A stretch of 64,000 bases of DNA from an uncultured Bacteroidales bacterium. Lineage in GTDB: Bacteria; Bacteroidota; Bacteroidia; Bacteroidales; Paludibacteraceae. Below the pieces are notes generated by a model. That model was not told the origin of the DNA and searched no databases. It saw only the letters and a list, made by a program, of their open reading frames with translations. The stretch spans positions 27,997 through 91,996 of the forward strand of contig CAKUUM010000001.1 of NCBI GenBank assembly GCA_934692905.1. Direction: 5' to 3'. Made by a program: the position numbers and the translations under genes. The first letter of the stretch is position 1; every line of letters starts with the position of its first letter. Positions 14,244 through 47,389 of this stretch are shown piece after piece.

Positions 14244-14315
14244 CCCCCTCTTTCTCGGGGTCCCCATAAGCCCGATAGGGTGAAATGGGGTGAACTTGAG
14301 GGGGCAGGGGGAGTC
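14244..14315 (-). repeat. GC-rich hairpin element, long form (inverted relative to the copy at 45747..45818)
   Basis: The reverse complement gactccccctgccccctcaagttcaccccatttcaccctatcgggcttatggggaccccgagaaagaggggg aligns along its full length with 45747..45818. Confidence 0.8.
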
Positions 14316-42466: not shown

Positions 42467-43492
42467 ATGAGTGAGGTGTACCACATACCGGCAATGCTGG
42501 AGGAGACGATAAACGGACTGGATATCAAGCCCGAGGGGACGTATGTGGATGTCACCTTCGGCGGAGGAGGTCACTCACGTGCTATCATGAGCAGGCTCGG
42601 GGATACAGGAAGGCTGTTCTCGTTTGACCAAGACATGGACGCATATATAAATGAGAAGACCCCCTCCAACTCCCCCTTCAAAGGGGGAGAGTGCAGATGC
42701 TCGGAATACCCCTCCTTGAAAGAGGGGTCAGGGGAGGTCCATCGGTTGTCTGAAGACAAGCGATGGCAGTTTGTGCATGGTAATTTCCGTTACCTGAGGA
42801 ATTTCATGGACTATTACGGGGTAACGGAGATAGACGGGCTACTGGCTGACTTGGGTGTGAGTTTCCATCACTTCGACGAGGCAGAACGCGGCTTCTCGTT
42901 CCGGTTTGCCGGTCCGCTGGATATGCGCATGAATCGGGAAGGCGGGCGCACCGCAGCCGACATCGTAAACACCTACTCCGAGGAAGACCTGACACGCGTA
43001 TTCCGTATCTACGGCGAGATGAGCAACGCCAAAGCCGTGGCACAGCGGATAGTCAGGCAAAGGGAAAACGCACCCATTCTCCGCACCGAACAATTGGTAG
43101 AATGTGTCATGCGCAATGTGCAATGCGCAATGTGCGATGGTCTTATCGAGGTGCCGACATGGGCAAAGAAAGACTTGGCAAGAATGTTCCAAGCGTTGCG
43201 CATAGAGGTGAACGACGAATTGGGTGCGCTACGAGAGATGCTGCTGGCAGCACGCGAGTTGCTTCGTCCGGGCGGACGGATAGCCATACTGACCTATCAC
43301 TCGTTGGAAGACAGGATTGTGAAAAACTTTCTGCGTTCCGGTAACTTGGACGGCACCATCGAAAAGGATTTCTACGGCAACATACTGACACCCTTCCGAG
43401 TAATAGAAAAAGGGGCTACGGCAAGTGAAAAGGAAGTGGAGCGCAATCCGAGAGCAAGGAGCGCGAAACTGCGGGTGGCGGAGAAACTATAA
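42467..43492 (+). CDS. rsmH: 16S rRNA (cytosine1402-N4)-methyltransferase, carrying two low-complexity inserts
   Basis: MSEVYHIPAMLEETI, GGGGHS, DGLLADLGVS and FQALRIEVNDEL motifs. The ATG at 42467 is preferred over the TTG at 42461. Confidence 0.9.
   Translation: MSEVYHIPAMLEETINGLDIKPEGTYVDVTFGGGGHSRAIMSRLGDTGRLFSFDQDMDAYINEKTPSNSPFKGGECRCSEYPSLKEGSGEVHRLSEDKRWQFVHGNFRYLRNFMDYYGVTEIDGLLADLGVSFHHFDEAERGFSFRFAGPLDMRMNREGGRTAADIVNTYSEEDLTRVFRIYGEMSNAKAVAQRIVRQRENAPILRTEQLVECVMRNVQCAMCDGLIEVPTWAKKDLARMFQALRIEVNDELGALREMLLAARELLRPGGRIAILTYHSLEDRIVKNFLRSGNLDGTIEKDFYGNILTPFRVIEKGATASEKEVERNPRARSAKLRVAEKL
42658..42740. repeat. Inverted pair of short-form GC-rich hairpin elements inside rsmH coding sequence (in-frame)
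   Basis: gaccccctccaactcccccttcaaagggggag ... gaatacccctccttgaaagaggggtcaggggaggtcc. These encode about residues 64-92 (TPSNSPFKGGECRCSEYPSLKEGSGEV). Confidence 0.8.
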
Positions 43493-43935: not shown

Positions 43936-45747
43936 ATGAGTGACAATCTGAAAAATACGATACTGAGGTTCGCAGTCATCTTTGTGGTGATTGTGATGCT
44001 GTTCGGTGTGGTGTTGTTTCAGATAGGCAGGCTACAGACAGTGGAACGCAGTCAGTGGGAGAGCATTGCGGACAAGTTTGAGTCCGTGACCAAGCCCATT
44101 CCCGCAACGCGAGGGAATATCTACGATGCGGACGGACGACTGCTTGCCAGCAGTATCCCACAGTACAGCGTACACATAGACACACGTGTGGAAGCCCTAC
44201 ACATGGACAACGGGAAACTGTTCTGGGAGAATGTGGACTCCATCGCCGAAGGGCTCAGCAGGATTATCGGCGACAAATCGCCGCAGGAGTACAAGCGGCA
44301 GATGGTGACAGCCTACAAGGCGCGCACCAACAGGGAAAGGGATATACGTCTGTACAGGGGACGTATCAGTTACATACAGAAGAAGGAAATCCAGCAGTTG
44401 CCCCTCGTAAGGCGCGGGTACTACAAGAGCGGTTTCCACTATGAAGACCTGCATCGGCGGGTGAAGCCTTTCGGAAGCCTCGGCAGTAGAACCATCGGCA
44501 GTATCTATGGCGAAGGGGGACACGGAAACGCAGGTATAGAGAAGCGGTTTGACGCCTATCTGTGCGGCGAGGACGGCGTAAGTGTTCGGCAACCCGTAGC
44601 GGGAAAATTGCAGTACGTGCCCGTGAAAGACGCGGTGAACGGCTGCGATGTCTATACCACCTTGGACGCCAACCTGATGGACATCTGCGAAACGGCGTTG
44701 CGTCAGCGGCTGAACAAGACGGAAGCCGATTGGGGTTGCGTCGCGCTCATGGAGGTATCAACAGGCGAGATAAAGGCGATGTGCAACCTGGACAGAGCCG
44801 AAGACGGTACGTACTATGAGGCAATGAACCACGTGGTGTCGCGCGTGGAGCCCGGTTCCACGTTCAAAACCATCGCGCTGATGGCGGCATTGGACGACGG
44901 CAAGATTGACATCGATGACACGGTGGAAGTATATCGCAAAGGGTGGACCTACTACAACGCCCGACATACCGACTCGCACCCGCGAGATACGGTGTACAGC
45001 ATCCGCAACGCGCTGGCGGTGAGCAGCAACATCGCCATGGCGAAGATAATCACCGAGGGTTACAAGGGCAGCGCACGCAAGTTCGTGCACAAGTTGGACC
45101 GTATGGGACTGTTGGACAGCGTGGACTACATCATCCCGGGTGCCGACCAGGCGCGTATCGACATCCCCAACGACACGGTGACCATCTCGCGCATGTCGTA
45201 CGGCTATTCGGTGGAGATGAGTCCGATGCAGACTATGCTGTTCTACAACGGCATTGCGAACGGGGGTAAGATGATTTCGCCTGTGCTTGTGCGTGAGGTT
45301 CGGAAGAACGGCAAGACGATAAAGACATACCAGACGGAGACCATCGAGAGCAGTATATGCGGGTCGTCCACGCTGCGCGACATACAATCGTGTTTGCATG
45401 ACGTGGTGTGGGACAACCATTTAGGTACGGCGTCGGTGAACCCGTGGAAGATGAAGAAAGCCCAAAGCGACTTGGTGCATATCGCGGGCAAAACGGGCAC
45501 GGCGCAGTTGTTTGAGAAAGGACGGTACCAGAGCCACAGGCACCGTATGTCGTTCGTGGGGTATTTCCCCGAGGAGAACCCGCAATACACATGTATATGC
45601 GTGATTAGCGGTCCGAAATACTACGGGTATTACGATGCGGGTATGGACTGCGGCTCGGTGGTCCGGCAGATAGCCGAGAAGACGATGGTATATGCGGCGG
45701 AATATGTGATTGAGAACGGGGAGAAGGTTCTGCAAATCAAGAATTAA
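43936..45747 (+). CDS. ftsI: Penicillin-binding protein 3 type transpeptidase (FtsI)
   Basis: N-terminal TM; SxxK (PGSTFKT), SxN (VSSNIAM) and KTG (AGKTGTAQ) motifs. Confidence 0.9.
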   Translation: MSDNLKNTILRFAVIFVVIVMLFGVVLFQIGRLQTVERSQWESIADKFESVTKPIPATRGNIYDADGRLLASSIPQYSVHIDTRVEALHMDNGKLFWENVDSIAEGLSRIIGDKSPQEYKRQMVTAYKARTNRERDIRLYRGRISYIQKKEIQQLPLVRRGYYKSGFHYEDLHRRVKPFGSLGSRTIGSIYGEGGHGNAGIEKRFDAYLCGEDGVSVRQPVAGKLQYVPVKDAVNGCDVYTTLDANLMDICETALRQRLNKTEADWGCVALMEVSTGEIKAMCNLDRAEDGTYYEAMNHVVSRVEPGSTFKTIALMAALDDGKIDIDDTVEVYRKGWTYYNARHTDSHPRDTVYSIRNALAVSSNIAMAKIITEGYKGSARKFVHKLDRMGLLDSVDYIIPGADQARIDIPNDTVTISRMSYGYSVEMSPMQTMLFYNGIANGGKMISPVLVREVRKNGKTIKTYQTETIESSICGSSTLRDIQSCLHDVVWDNHLGTASVNPWKMKKAQSDLVHIAGKTGTAQLFEKGRYQSHRHRMSFVGYFPEENPQYTCICVISGPKYYGYYDAGMDCGSVVRQIAEKTMVYAAEYVIENGEKVLQIKN

Positions 45748-45818
45748 CTCCCCCTACCCCCTCAAGAGCACCCCACTTCGCCCTGCGGGGCTCGTAGGGA
45801 CCCCGCTACAGAGGGGGA
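45747..45818 (+). repeat. GC-rich hairpin element, long form (reference copy), between ftsI and murE
   Basis: actccccctaccccctcaagagcaccccacttcgccctgcggggctcgtagggaccccgctacagaggggga, homologous along its full length to the reverse complement of 14244..14315. Confidence 0.8.
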
Positions 45819-45856
45819 CACAAAAGTAAAATGAAGGATTATTAAACGATAATTAT

Positions 45857-47389
45857 ATGAAACTAAGTGAGTTGCTGAAAGGTGTGGAGGTGCTGCAAAC
45901 CGTGGGCAGTACGGATGTGGAGATACAGAGTATCCAGTTCGATTCGCGACGCGTGGATGAGGGCGATGTGTTCGTAGCCCAACGCGGCACCAGCGTGGAC
46001 GGACATACGTTTATCGCACAATGTATCAACCAAGGGGCAGTAGCCATAGTCTTGGAAGACAAGAACTATATCCGACTCCCCCAACCCCCTCAGGGAGGGG
46101 GCTCAACAAAGCAGGCACCTGATGTTACCTATATATTAGTAAAGAACAGCGATGAAGCCCTTGGCAGAATGGCACACACATGGTACGGGGAGCCGAGCAA
46201 GCACCTGCGGTTGGTGGGTGTGACAGGCACCAACGGCAAGACCACCACCGCCACCCTGCTCTACCGTCTGACAAAAGCCATGGGACACAAGGCAGGACTG
46301 CTCTCGACGGTCGTCAATTACGTGGACGACGAAGCCGTAGAGGCTACGCACACCACGCCCGACGCGTTGGAACTCAACGGGTTGCTGCACCGCATGGTAG
46401 CGGCAGGGTGCGAGTACGCCTTCATGGAGGTCAGCAGCCACGCCATCGCGCAGGAGCGCATCGCGGGCTTGGAGTTCGCGGGGGCGTTGTTCACCAACCT
46501 CACACGCGACCACCTCGACTACCACAAGACCTTCGACAACTACCGCGACACGAAGAAGAGGCTATTTGACGGGCTTCGCAAAGAGGCATTTGCCGTTACG
46601 AACCTGGATGACAAGAACGGGCTGGTGATGACGCAAAACTGTCGGGGTCACGTCTTCACGTATTCGACACGCGGCATGGCGGACTTCCGCGGGAAGATAC
46701 TTGAGGAAGGGTTCGACGGTATGCTGCTCCGCATACAGAGTACACAAGGGGCAGTGGACACCGAGGTATTCGTGCCGCTGGTGGGGCGTTTCAATGTGAG
46801 CAACCTGCTGCTGATATACGGTGCGGCTGTGGAACTCGGTTTCGACCCCATGGAGGTGCTGCGCATATTGAGTGGGCTGCACCCCGTGAACGGACGCTTC
46901 GAGACCATACACGCCCCGCAGGGCTGGACGGCGATTATTGACTACGCCCACACGCCCGATGCGGTGGAGAATGTGCTCCGTACCATCAACGAGATAATAT
47001 CGTCCACGGCGGGCAAGCGCAAAGAGCCCGCACAGGTGATTACGGTGGTCGGCTGCGGCGGCAACAGGGATAAGGGCAAGCGTCCGATGATGGCACGAAT
47101 TGCTTACGACCGGAGTACGCAACTGATACTGACCTCCGACAACCCCCGCGACGAGGAGCCCGCAGCCATTCTGCAAGACATGGCGGCAGGTCTGACGGAG
47201 GACGAACTGCGGCACGTGCTGATTATCGAAGACCGTGCGTCCGCCATCAAGACCGCCTGCACCATTGCACGCGACGGCGATGTGATACTCGTTGCCGGCA
47301 AGGGGCATGAGGACTACCAGATAATCAAAGGGGTGAAGCACCATTTCGACGACCATGAGGTGGTGAGAGGGTGCTTGATTGTTAAGTAA
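45857..47389 (+). CDS. murE: UDP-N-acetylmuramoyl-L-alanyl-D-glutamate--2,6-diaminopimelate ligase
   Basis: GVTGTNGKTTTA P-loop and the DNPR motif (TSDNPRDEEP) typical of MurE. Confidence 0.95.
   Translation: MKLSELLKGVEVLQTVGSTDVEIQSIQFDSRRVDEGDVFVAQRGTSVDGHTFIAQCINQGAVAIVLEDKNYIRLPQPPQGGGSTKQAPDVTYILVKNSDEALGRMAHTWYGEPSKHLRLVGVTGTNGKTTTATLLYRLTKAMGHKAGLLSTVVNYVDDEAVEATHTTPDALELNGLLHRMVAAGCEYAFMEVSSHAIAQERIAGLEFAGALFTNLTRDHLDYHKTFDNYRDTKKRLFDGLRKEAFAVTNLDDKNGLVMTQNCRGHVFTYSTRGMADFRGKILEEGFDGMLLRIQSTQGAVDTEVFVPLVGRFNVSNLLLIYGAAVELGFDPMEVLRILSGLHPVNGRFETIHAPQGWTAIIDYAHTPDAVENVLRTINEIISSTAGKRKEPAQVITVVGCGGNRDKGKRPMMARIAYDRSTQLILTSDNPRDEEPAAILQDMAAGLTEDELRHVLIIEDRASAIKTACTIARDGDVILVAGKGHEDYQIIKGVKHHFDDHEVVRGCLIVK
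46074..46101 (+). repeat. Short-form GC-rich hairpin element inside murE coding sequence (in-frame)
   Basis: gactcccccaaccccctcagggagggggc. It encodes about residues 73-82 (RLPQPPQGGG). Confidence 0.75.

What the first reader, a model, noticed from the sequence alone, without database searches (positions are those of the whole stretch)
46074..46101. Hairpin element translated inside murE
MurE reads ...AIVLEDKNYIRLPQPPQGGGSTKQAPDVTYILVKN.... The RLPQPPQGGG stretch is encoded by gactcccccaaccccctcagggagggggc. This DNA is nearly identical to the ribF and lpxB copies. At 510 aa the protein is somewhat longer than typical MurE.
Basis: partly seen in the sequence, partly recalled or inferred. Interest (0 to 1): 0.65.

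Follow-up and report, generated by a model that had tools for sequence, protein, structure and literature searches.

The report
Hairpin repeat translated inside murE
A 30-base GC-rich hairpin repeat that is scattered through this gut Bacteroidales genome sits in frame in the essential cell-wall gene murE, where it adds a floppy 11-13-residue surface loop, a second example after Rickettsia of selfish palindromic DNA living inside housekeeping proteins.

Summary
GACTCCCCCAACCCCCTCAGGGAGGGGGC (46074-46102) lies in the only murE gene and encodes R73-S83 (RLPQPPQGGGS).

- **Insertion:** the closest MurE proteins without the repeat are 498 aa (84-87% identical) or 494 aa (about 80%), and they have a gap exactly here.
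- **Variation at the site:** a sister species has two tandem copies. Other relatives carry unrelated dispersed heptamer repeats in the same loop.
- **Structure:** the insert is a low-confidence coil between two strands of Mur-ligase domain 1.
- **Family:** this genome has about 17 copies and two sister species have 32 and at least 94. Fifteen other species of the genus have none. The core occurs across Bacteroidota, about 30% of the time inside long ORFs, in both orientations. In this genome it is also in frame in ribF, lpxB, murF, rsmH and an ABC-F gene.
- **Known classes:** it works like Rickettsia palindromic elements and intragenic REPs but belongs to neither. It has no GTAG/CGTC tag and no RAYT gene.
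- **Possible partner:** in related genomes, inverted units of the same architecture bracket DUF559 (Vsr-like) nuclease genes. This genome has no DUF559 gene, so the murE copy is most likely an old, immobile solo unit.

Translation is inferred, not shown.

The parts
46074..46102 (+). Solo copy of the GC-rich hairpin repeat. It has C-run 1 (CTCCCCC), a 2-nt spacer (AA), C-run 2 that forms the 5' arm, the loop AGG and the G-run 3' arm.
   Evidence: scores 43.3 bits with covariance model R1 (G000:C1:74067-74104)
46085..46101 (+). Hairpin core: 5' arm CCCCCTC (46085-46091), loop AGG, 3' arm GAGGGGG (46095-46101).
   Evidence: sequence; 7 pairs are 96% paired across 15 copies, and 2 pairs show compensatory changes
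46073..46105 (+). Eleven codons R73-S83 (RLPQPPQGGGS), the block added to MurE. The net gain over empty alleles is 12-13 codons.
45857..47389 (+). murE (UDP-MurNAc-L-Ala-D-Glu:meso-DAP ligase), 510 aa, intact, the only copy in the genome.
45746..45819 (+). Long form of the same element between the ftsI stop codon and the murE start. It has the same two C-runs and G-arm, but a 47-nt core replaces the 3-nt loop.
   Evidence: a second, inverted long form is at 14244-14315 (R1 hit)
16274..16303 (+). Copy inside ribF, read antisense as SPLSEGVRGSL. A degenerate second copy lies just upstream (about 16239-16273).
63746..63774 (+). Copy inside lpxB, read antisense in another frame as SPSLRGAGGA.
42658..42740 (+).

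Best explanation
The murE sequence is a solo unit of a dispersed GC-rich palindromic repeat of about 30-33 nt. The consensus is (G)ACTCCCCC-TAA-CCCCCTC-ARA-GAGGGGG-AA. It entered the variable surface loop between two beta-strands of Mur-ligase domain 1 in an ancestor shared with, or later exchanged with, a sister species.

The insertion survived for three reasons. Its length keeps the reading frame. The unit has no stop codon in 4 of its 6 frames. This copy has a 2-nt rather than 3-nt spacer, so its reading skips the TAA of the fifth frame.

The insert is transcribed and translated with the gene as a Pro/Gly-rich, disordered stretch of 11-13 residues, and the enzyme tolerates it. It has no demonstrable role in MurE.

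Shown: the repeat family, the insertion relative to empty alleles, the loop position, and the lineage-restricted copy numbers. Inferred: translation, neutrality, and the mode of spread.

For spread, my best guess (about 0.3) is that solo units derive from, or are acted on by, small DUF559 (Vsr-like PD-(D/E)XK) nuclease cassettes. These cassettes carry the same units as inverted ends in related genomes, in an arrangement analogous to RAYT and REP. This genome has no such nuclease gene, so its copies are probably fossils.
For: - **Dispersed repeat family.** The core occurs 3 times in the window against 0.02 expected. A covariance model finds 17 hits in this genome, 32 and at least 94 in the two closest species, and none in 15 other species of the genus.
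- **Insertion.** Empty alleles of 498 and 494 aa have a gap exactly here. A two-copy allele of 521 aa also exists.
- **DNA-level identity.** The same unit is read as LPQPPQGGG in murE, SPLSEGVRGS in ribF and SPSLRGAGG in lpxB and murF, each an insertion relative to orthologues. It is also in an ABC-F gene and in two C-terminal tails.
- **Permissive site.** In the AlphaFold model the N-terminal domain has pLDDT above 90, except residues 77-86, which are below 50. The segment 67-90 is coil between strands 63-66 and 91-95. phmmer places a gap in E. coli MurE inside the insert. The same loop holds unrelated dispersed heptamer repeats in other species.
- **Not an assembly artefact.** The 90% cluster has 94 members from independent assemblies. 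Of the 14 other members listed, 13 carry the same insert and one carries the AT-rich insert instead.
- **Generality.** In other Bacteroidota genomes, 40 of 132 exact-core matches lie inside open frames of at least 250 aa, 18 sense and 22 antisense, using four readings.
- **Nuclease link.** DUF559 genes in six of the eight free-standing cassette loci I read, from six genomes, are flanked within about 100 nt on both sides by units of the same architecture: inverted pairs in five and direct repeats in one. One whole cassette is in frame in the only leuS gene of a related genome.
Against: - No RNA or peptide evidence for translation could be obtained.
- Exact element ends and any target-site duplication could not be defined, because the empty alleles are too diverged around the site.
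- Orthologous in-gene copies in the three sister species are more conserved than neutral sites. Third codon positions are 84% identical in the inserts against 69% in the flanks (p = 0.001), and differences are spread evenly over codon positions. This is not what a purely neutral passenger predicts. The murE copy itself does not clearly show it (70% against 59% at 4-fold sites; this pair was not tested on its own).
- DUF559 is absent from this genome and from the genome with the most copies. The nuclease may therefore be a passenger rather than the mobiliser. These are 93-94% complete MAGs, so absence is not certain.
- No Y1/RAYT transposase was found either.
Confidence: 0.82

Rival explanations
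1. The unit is kept inside the genes because it works at DNA or RNA level. It could be a protein recognition site, a recombination or repair signal, or an mRNA hairpin that modulates translation or decay. On this view the peptide is a by-product.
For: Orthologous in-gene copies are more conserved than 4-fold sites of the same genes (86.8% against 68.4%, p = 1e-10). Third positions are 84% against 69% identical (p = 0.001). Changes are spread evenly over codon positions. A 24-base specified core is identical across several Bacteroidota orders and in a Chlorobiota genome.
Against: The murE copy does not clearly show the excess conservation. In the sister species the orthologous murE copy has lost two stem pairs through synonymous changes (CCC CCT to CCA CCA). 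Empty and other-repeat alleles of the loop exist in near relatives. Gene conversion among copies would give the same conservation signal. The pairwise comparisons share branches, so the p-values are optimistic.
Confidence: 0.12
2. The insert is an adaptive change to MurE, a new loop selected for regulation or for contacts with partner proteins of the divisome or the Mur complex.
For: The insert peptide is the same, apart from an R/G change at its first residue, in the 13 listed members of the species-level cluster that carry it. It has been retained since divergence from the sister species.
Against: Unrelated genes carry the same DNA in other frames. Sister lineages have an empty loop, a different repeat or two copies. 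The segment is predicted to be disordered. The peptide differs at 4 of 11 residues from the orthologous copy in the sister species.
Confidence: 0.04
3. There was no insertion of repeat DNA. The stretch arose locally by slippage or low-complexity expansion, or it is an assembly artefact.
For: The loop is length-variable across the order. Two short metagenome contigs join the murE 5' part to unrelated DNA right after a repeat copy, which shows that assemblers can break here.
Against: There is 27/29 identity to a copy 30 kb away in another gene on the other coding strand. The unit scores as a family member. Many independent assemblies give the same sequence.
Confidence: 0.02

Closest known systems
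Rickettsia palindromic elements (RPEs; Ogata et al., as summarised in PMC10969869 and PMC3733652)
   Same: It is a dispersed palindromic repeat inserted in frame into unrelated housekeeping genes. It is read as extra peptide in positions compatible with the fold. Copy number is lineage-specific.
   Different: RPEs are about 100-150 bp, belong to about ten Rickettsia-specific families and each encode one conserved peptide (PMC10969869). This unit is about 30 nt, occurs in Bacteroidota, is read in at least five frames on both strands, and shows no sequence relation to RPEs.
REP elements and REPINs with their RAYT transposases (PMC3733652, PMC3116915)
   Same: It is a GC-rich imperfect palindrome in the 20-40-nt range. 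It occurs as singlets, inverted doublets and tandem copies. Some REPs are known to lie inside ORFs and add amino acids (PMC3733652). A single-copy enzyme gene flanked by inverted units exists in related genomes.
   Different: There is no GTAG or CGTC tag. No Y1/RAYT gene is present in this genome or its two sister species. About 30% of copies are intragenic rather than almost all being extragenic. The flanked enzyme is a DUF559 PD-(D/E)XK nuclease, not an HUH transposase.
In-frame DUF559 nuclease cassettes with hairpin ends in Bacteroidota housekeeping genes. These are reported by earlier agents of this scan, who found no printed description. The nearest printed nuclease they named is the Vsr-like homing endonuclease I-Bth0305I (PMC3239194, which I did not read).
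   Same: The end units have the same architecture of C-run, spacer and C-run/G-run hairpin. I re-found one such cassette in frame in leuS of a related genome.
   Different: The murE insert is a solo unit without a nuclease ORF. This genome has no DUF559 gene at all. The one cassette in a sister species carries ends of the sister subfamily (the rsmH type), not the murE type.

Membership tests
MurE (Mur ligase family) | Mur_ligase, Mur_ligase_M and Mur_ligase_C domains, with the best matches to solved MurE structures | tested here: met
   Pfam E-values are 3e-11, 4e-51 and 3e-29. PDB MurE chains match at E = 1e-87 to 1e-92. Foldseek TM-score is about 0.7 to 7B68 and 4BUB.
Rickettsia palindromic elements | Dispersed palindromic repeat found in frame within functional ORFs | tested here: met
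Rickettsia palindromic elements | Unit of about 100-150 bp belonging to the RPE sequence families of Rickettsia, one conserved peptide per family | tested here: not met
   The unit is about 30-33 nt. It has five different readings. The host is a Bacteroidales bacterium.
REP / REPIN-RAYT | Short (20-40 nt) imperfect palindrome present in many copies, often as inverted doublets | tested here: met
   (adjacent inverted pairs in G006)
REP / REPIN-RAYT | GTAG or CGTC tetranucleotide at one end (PMC3733652) | tested here: not met
   The consensus from 129 copies starts (G)ACTCCCCC and ends GGGGGAA. There is no GTAG or CGTC.
REP / REPIN-RAYT | RAYT (Y1_Tnp, PF01797) gene in the genome | tested here: not met
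   No match in G000, G002 or G006. The control genomes ring. The caveat is that these MAGs are 93-97% complete.
MITE | 70-300 bp with 15-30-bp terminal inverted repeats and target-site duplications | tested here: not met
   The solo unit is about 30 nt with a 7-bp stem. No duplication could be read because the empty alleles are too diverged. The 74-nt long form at 45746-45819 comes closer to a MITE but was not analysed further.
Hairpin-ended DUF559 cassette family (scan-internal) | End unit with C-run, spacer and C-run/G-run hairpin | tested here: met
   Units flanking DUF559 genes in G015, G019, G021, G025, G023 and G002 score with model R1.
Hairpin-ended DUF559 cassette family (scan-internal) | DUF559 ORF between two units | tested here: not met
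   There is no ORF within the murE insert, and no PF04480 match anywhere in G000. The murE insert is a solo unit.
Intein / homing-endonuclease insertion | Splicing domain or endonuclease ORF in the insert | tested here: not met
   The insert is 11-13 codons of Pro/Gly-rich coil.

The most novel reading that the evidence does not exclude
The MurE domain-1 loop may not be just a permissive sink. It may be a recurrent target at which each lineage's active short dispersed repeat is written into the gene by a break-and-copy process. The repeats are the GC hairpin unit here, (GAAT[GT]AA)n in the closest species and (GGACAAT)n in two others. On this reading the hairpin units are kept at DNA level, above the synonymous rate, because they are the recognition ends of a minimal Vsr-like DUF559 nuclease system. 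That system would form an undescribed class of mobile element in Bacteroidota that lives inside essential proteins without splicing.
Probability: 0.2. Interest if true: 0.8.

Novelty: new member of a known kind. Interest (0 to 1): 0.5.

Why it matters
- In-frame 'protein-coding palindromes' were long treated as a peculiarity of Rickettsia. Here the same phenomenon is seen in free-living gut Bacteroidales, with a much shorter unit. Several essential genes are affected (murE, murF, lpxB, ribF), and about 30% of copies across the phylum lie inside ORFs.
- It shows how selfish DNA can lengthen loops of conserved enzymes, and it gives natural insertion-tolerance maps for drug-target enzymes such as MurE and MurF.
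- It explains odd Pro/Gly-rich inserts that confuse annotation and alignment.
- The alleles at one loop (empty, one copy, two copies, other repeats) offer a tractable system for measuring the cost and turnover of such inserts.
- The association with DUF559 nuclease cassettes gives a testable candidate for the spreading mechanism.

Tried and rejected
- **RNA fold.** The 76-nt region is no more stable than shuffles (z = -0.05), so thermodynamics alone does not mark the hairpin.
- **Rfam.** Nothing near threshold (best 16 bits against a gathering score of 35).
- **RAYT/Y1 transposase as mobiliser.** Absent from G000, G002 and G006.
- **DUF559 as a resident mobiliser.** Absent from G000 and G006.
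- **Autonomous elements between inverted copies.** In L151 one copy is simply in frame in a 653-aa ORF. In G006:C6 the inverted pair encloses only a truncated DUF1016_N ORF.
- **The GxxExxY gene between mraY and murD.** It is flanked by different, AT-rich repeats and is unrelated to this unit.
- **Exact ends and target duplication.** Could not be read from the empty alleles because the flanks are too diverged.
- **Codon-position test for translation.** The inserts show no third-position excess (12/11/15), so the test gives no support for protein-level selection. It points instead to DNA-level conservation.
- **Literature search for the core sequence.** No papers found.
- **LeuRS in G000.** tblastn found nothing, and the genome search confirms that this MAG lacks a detectable leuS. 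This is a completeness gap.

Full report
**Observation.** The 29-mer GACTCCCCCAACCCCCTCAGGGAGGGGGC is at window 46074-46102. It lies inside the 510-aa ORF 45857..47389. The ORF has the three Mur-ligase domains, matches solved MurE structures at E = 1e-87 to 1e-92, and is the only murE in the genome. The second weak hit in that search is murF.

Codons 46073-46105 read R73-LPQPPQGGG-S83. The 17-nt core CCCCCTCAGRGAGGGGG occurs three times in the window against 0.02 expected. The other two copies are in ribF and lpxB, both genes on the minus strand. There the same DNA is read antisense, as SPLSEGVRGSL and SPSLRGAGGA. The stem is 7 bp with a 3-nt loop. A local fold is not more stable than shuffles. 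However, two stem pairs covary between subfamilies of the repeat: CCCCCTC/GAGGGGG against CCCCTCC/GGAGGGG. Across 15 copies 96% of cells are paired, and 0 of 500 shuffles reach the observed covariation score.

**Is it an insertion?** Yes. I aligned MurE from 30 related genomes. The five congeners at about 80% identity read ...EYI|K(E/D)DG(V/I)CY... where this genome reads ...NYI-RLPQPPQGGGSTKQAPD-VTY.... A search of the large protein collection and of cluster members gave closer brackets:
- P0004 (84% identical, 498 aa) has an empty loop.
- P0140 and P0144-P0149 (498 aa, in the cluster of P0002, which is 87% identical) also have an empty loop (LPTDCHTT).
- The species-level cluster has 94 members. 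Of the 14 other members listed, 13 carry the same insert apart from an R/G change at its first residue.
- The second-closest species (G002, 521 aa) carries two tandem units (GLPRPPQRGGN-GDSPDPLKEGD).

Alleles differ by 11 codons (498 to 509, and 510 to 521). Tandem copies elsewhere repeat every 30 nt. The unit is about 30-33 nt and so keeps the reading frame.

**The loop is a hot spot.** The closest species (G006) has, at the same place, a different 11-codon insert, GELKMKNEELR. It is made of (ATGAAGA)-like heptamers and is polymorphic against the empty 498-aa allele within a 90% cluster. Two other congeners carry 5 and 8 units of GGACAAT there, a difference of 21 nt, so the frame is kept. Both heptamer motifs are themselves dispersed repeats of the genomes that carry them:
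- GAAT[GT]AA-type: 68 matches in G006.
- GGACAAT-type: 37 and 44 matches in G003 and G005, and none in G002, G006, G007 or G012.

So each lineage's loop holds whichever short repeat is abundant in that genome. Mosaic alleles exist: P0131 has a body of this species with the AT-rich insert, and P0006 is also mosaic. The murE 5' part of this genome resembles G002 more than G006, although G006 is closer in lpxB, murF and ribF. I infer recombination between species in this segment.

**Structure.** phmmer opens a gap in E. coli MurE inside the insert. An AlphaFold2 model (19-sequence alignment, mean pLDDT 77) gives pLDDT above 90 for most of the N-terminal domain. It drops below 50 for residues 77-86, and residues 67-90 are coil between strands 63-66 and 91-95. 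The model superposes on MurE crystal structures with TM about 0.7. The insert is thus a disordered surface loop of domain 1, the UDP-binding domain by published descriptions of 1E8C (my own knowledge). Distances to the ligand site were not measured.

**The family.** A covariance model of 15 copies finds the following:
- 17 hits in this genome.
- 32 in G002 and at least 94 in G006.
- None in 15 other species of the genus, 4 weak hits in G015, and about 20 weak hits in one genome of another family.

In this genome the unit is in frame in ribF (two copies, in a 50-aa insertion), lpxB, murF (two sites, one in domain 1 next to the loop equivalent to the MurE site), and an ABC-F ATPase. It also forms the C-terminal tails of a bPH_5 protein and a bAvd-like protein. 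The ribF, lpxB and murF insertions are shared by the sister species and absent from all other relatives, so they are old.

A 74-nt long form has the same C-runs and G-arm, with a 47-nt core in place of the loop. It sits directly between the ftsI stop codon and the murE start.

A public-genome scan with a 24-base specified core returned more than 119 loci. They come from gut Bacteroidales, Sphingobacteriales, Pedobacter, Cytophagales, Capnocytophaga and Chloroherpeton. The consensus is sharply bounded: (G)A-CTCCCCC-TAA-CCCCCTC-ARA-GAGGGGG-AA. Of 132 matches, 40 lie at least 30 aa inside open frames of at least 250 aa, 18 sense and 22 antisense. They use four readings: LPLTPS(E/K)RG, TPPNPLKEG, SPSLRGLGGV and (F/S)PL(S/F)EGxRGS.

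The murE reading LPQPPQGGG is a fifth reading. It is open only because the spacer here is 2 nt (AA) instead of TAA, which shifts the second half into the frame that normally holds the TAA stop. The orthologous G002 copy has the same 2-nt spacer.

**How it spreads.** There is no Rfam match, and no Y1/RAYT transposase in this genome or its two sisters. I followed a lead from earlier notes of this scan and searched for DUF559 (PF04480). It is absent from this genome and from G006. It is present once in G002 and in 9 of 31 relatives overall.

Where free-standing DUF559 genes occur, they are usually bracketed within about 100 nt on both sides by units of the same architecture with lineage-specific sequence. 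I read eight such loci. Six had units on both sides: inverted pairs in G015, G019, G021, G025 and G002, and direct repeats in G023. This is the arrangement of a RAYT gene between REPs.

In G019 the whole cassette of about 160 aa lies in frame in the genome's only leuS, at the entry to the CP1 editing domain. It is absent from 25 other genomes. This agrees with many earlier notes of this scan. Later checks of those notes rated nuclease-driven mobility at only about 20-25%, because solo ends outnumber cassettes.

My data cut the same way. The association is real, but the genome with the most solo units has no DUF559 gene, and the G002 cassette carries ends of the sister (rsmH-type) subfamily. 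I therefore commit only to this: the murE insert is a solo unit of this family and is probably immobile now. Nuclease-dependent spread is the best available mechanism, at about 0.3.

**Is it neutral?** Orthologous in-gene units of the three species are 86.8% identical, against 68.4% at 4-fold sites of the same genes (p = 1e-10). Third codon positions are 84% against 69% identical (p = 0.001). First and second positions match the flanks, and changes are spread 12/11/15 over the three codon positions. That pattern suggests DNA-level constraint or gene conversion among copies rather than selection on the peptide.

The pairs share branches and the sample is 96 codons, so I treat this as a lead. 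The murE copy alone is 70% against 59%. Its G002 orthologue has lost two stem pairs by synonymous Pro changes, which fits a decaying passenger.

**Comparison and verdict.** Functionally this is the RPE phenomenon, in-frame palindromic repeats in housekeeping genes (PMC10969869). It also resembles the intragenic REPs described by Di Nocera et al. (PMC3733652). It fails the defining features of both: size and sequence family for RPEs, and the GTAG/CGTC tag and RAYT gene for REPs. I found no printed description of the unit. I file it as a new member of a known kind. The DUF559 link and the three-repeat hot spot are the parts that could make it more than that.

**Limits.** Translation is inferred. 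The ends and any target duplication are undefined. The genomes are MAGs.

Noticed in passing
L222 / L232 (G019:C24:20354-21748, minus strand): A complete cassette of hairpin unit, DUF559 nuclease and inverted hairpin unit (about 160 aa) lies in frame in the only leuS gene of a genome from another family. It sits between the residues equivalent to T. thermophilus LeuRS 236 and 240. None of 25 other genomes has it.
   Followed up: yes
L012 and L016 (MurE of G005 and G003), L002 (G006); genome-wide: Dispersed arrays of heptamer repeats occur at tens of places in some genomes of the genus and not in others: (GGACAAT)n and (GAAT[GT]AA)n. They also sit in frame in the MurE loop, where array lengths differ by 3 units (21 nt). 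They are reminiscent of the TAACTGA direct repeats of Beggiatoaceae (PMC4679880, abstract only seen).
   Followed up: partly
L098 and L099 (two metagenome contigs encoding P0143): The murE 5' part with a two-copy allele is joined, right after the second unit, to unrelated AT-rich DNA in two independent assemblies. This is either a chimeric join at the repeat or a truncated extra copy.
   Followed up: no
window 45746-45819 and 14244-14315: These are long forms of the element, in which a conserved core of about 47 nt replaces the 3-nt hairpin loop. The first starts at the ftsI stop codon and ends 38 nt before the murE start.
   Followed up: partly
G000:C47:1186-2934 (-), C20:3573-4100 (-), C4:35807-36211 (-): Further coding copies in this genome. 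An ABC-F ATPase carries NSPTLRGEGGVG in its C-terminal linker. A bPH_5 protein and a bAvd-like four-helix protein take their last 10-15 residues and their stop codon from the unit.
   Followed up: partly
L261 (G006:C6:39000-42000): Two paralogous secreted proteins start MNTTRN(Q/K)SVFPL(S/F)EE..RGSL. Here the unit encodes the extreme N-terminus ahead of the signal peptide. An inverted pair of units encloses a truncated DUF1016_N ORF.
   Followed up: partly
P0131 and P0006 (MurE homologues): These are mosaic murE alleles. In each, the N-terminal segment, including the loop insert, comes from one species-level cluster and the rest from another. This suggests homologous exchange of the insert-bearing segment.
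   Followed up: no
This repeat family differs from the GC hairpin.
   Followed up: no
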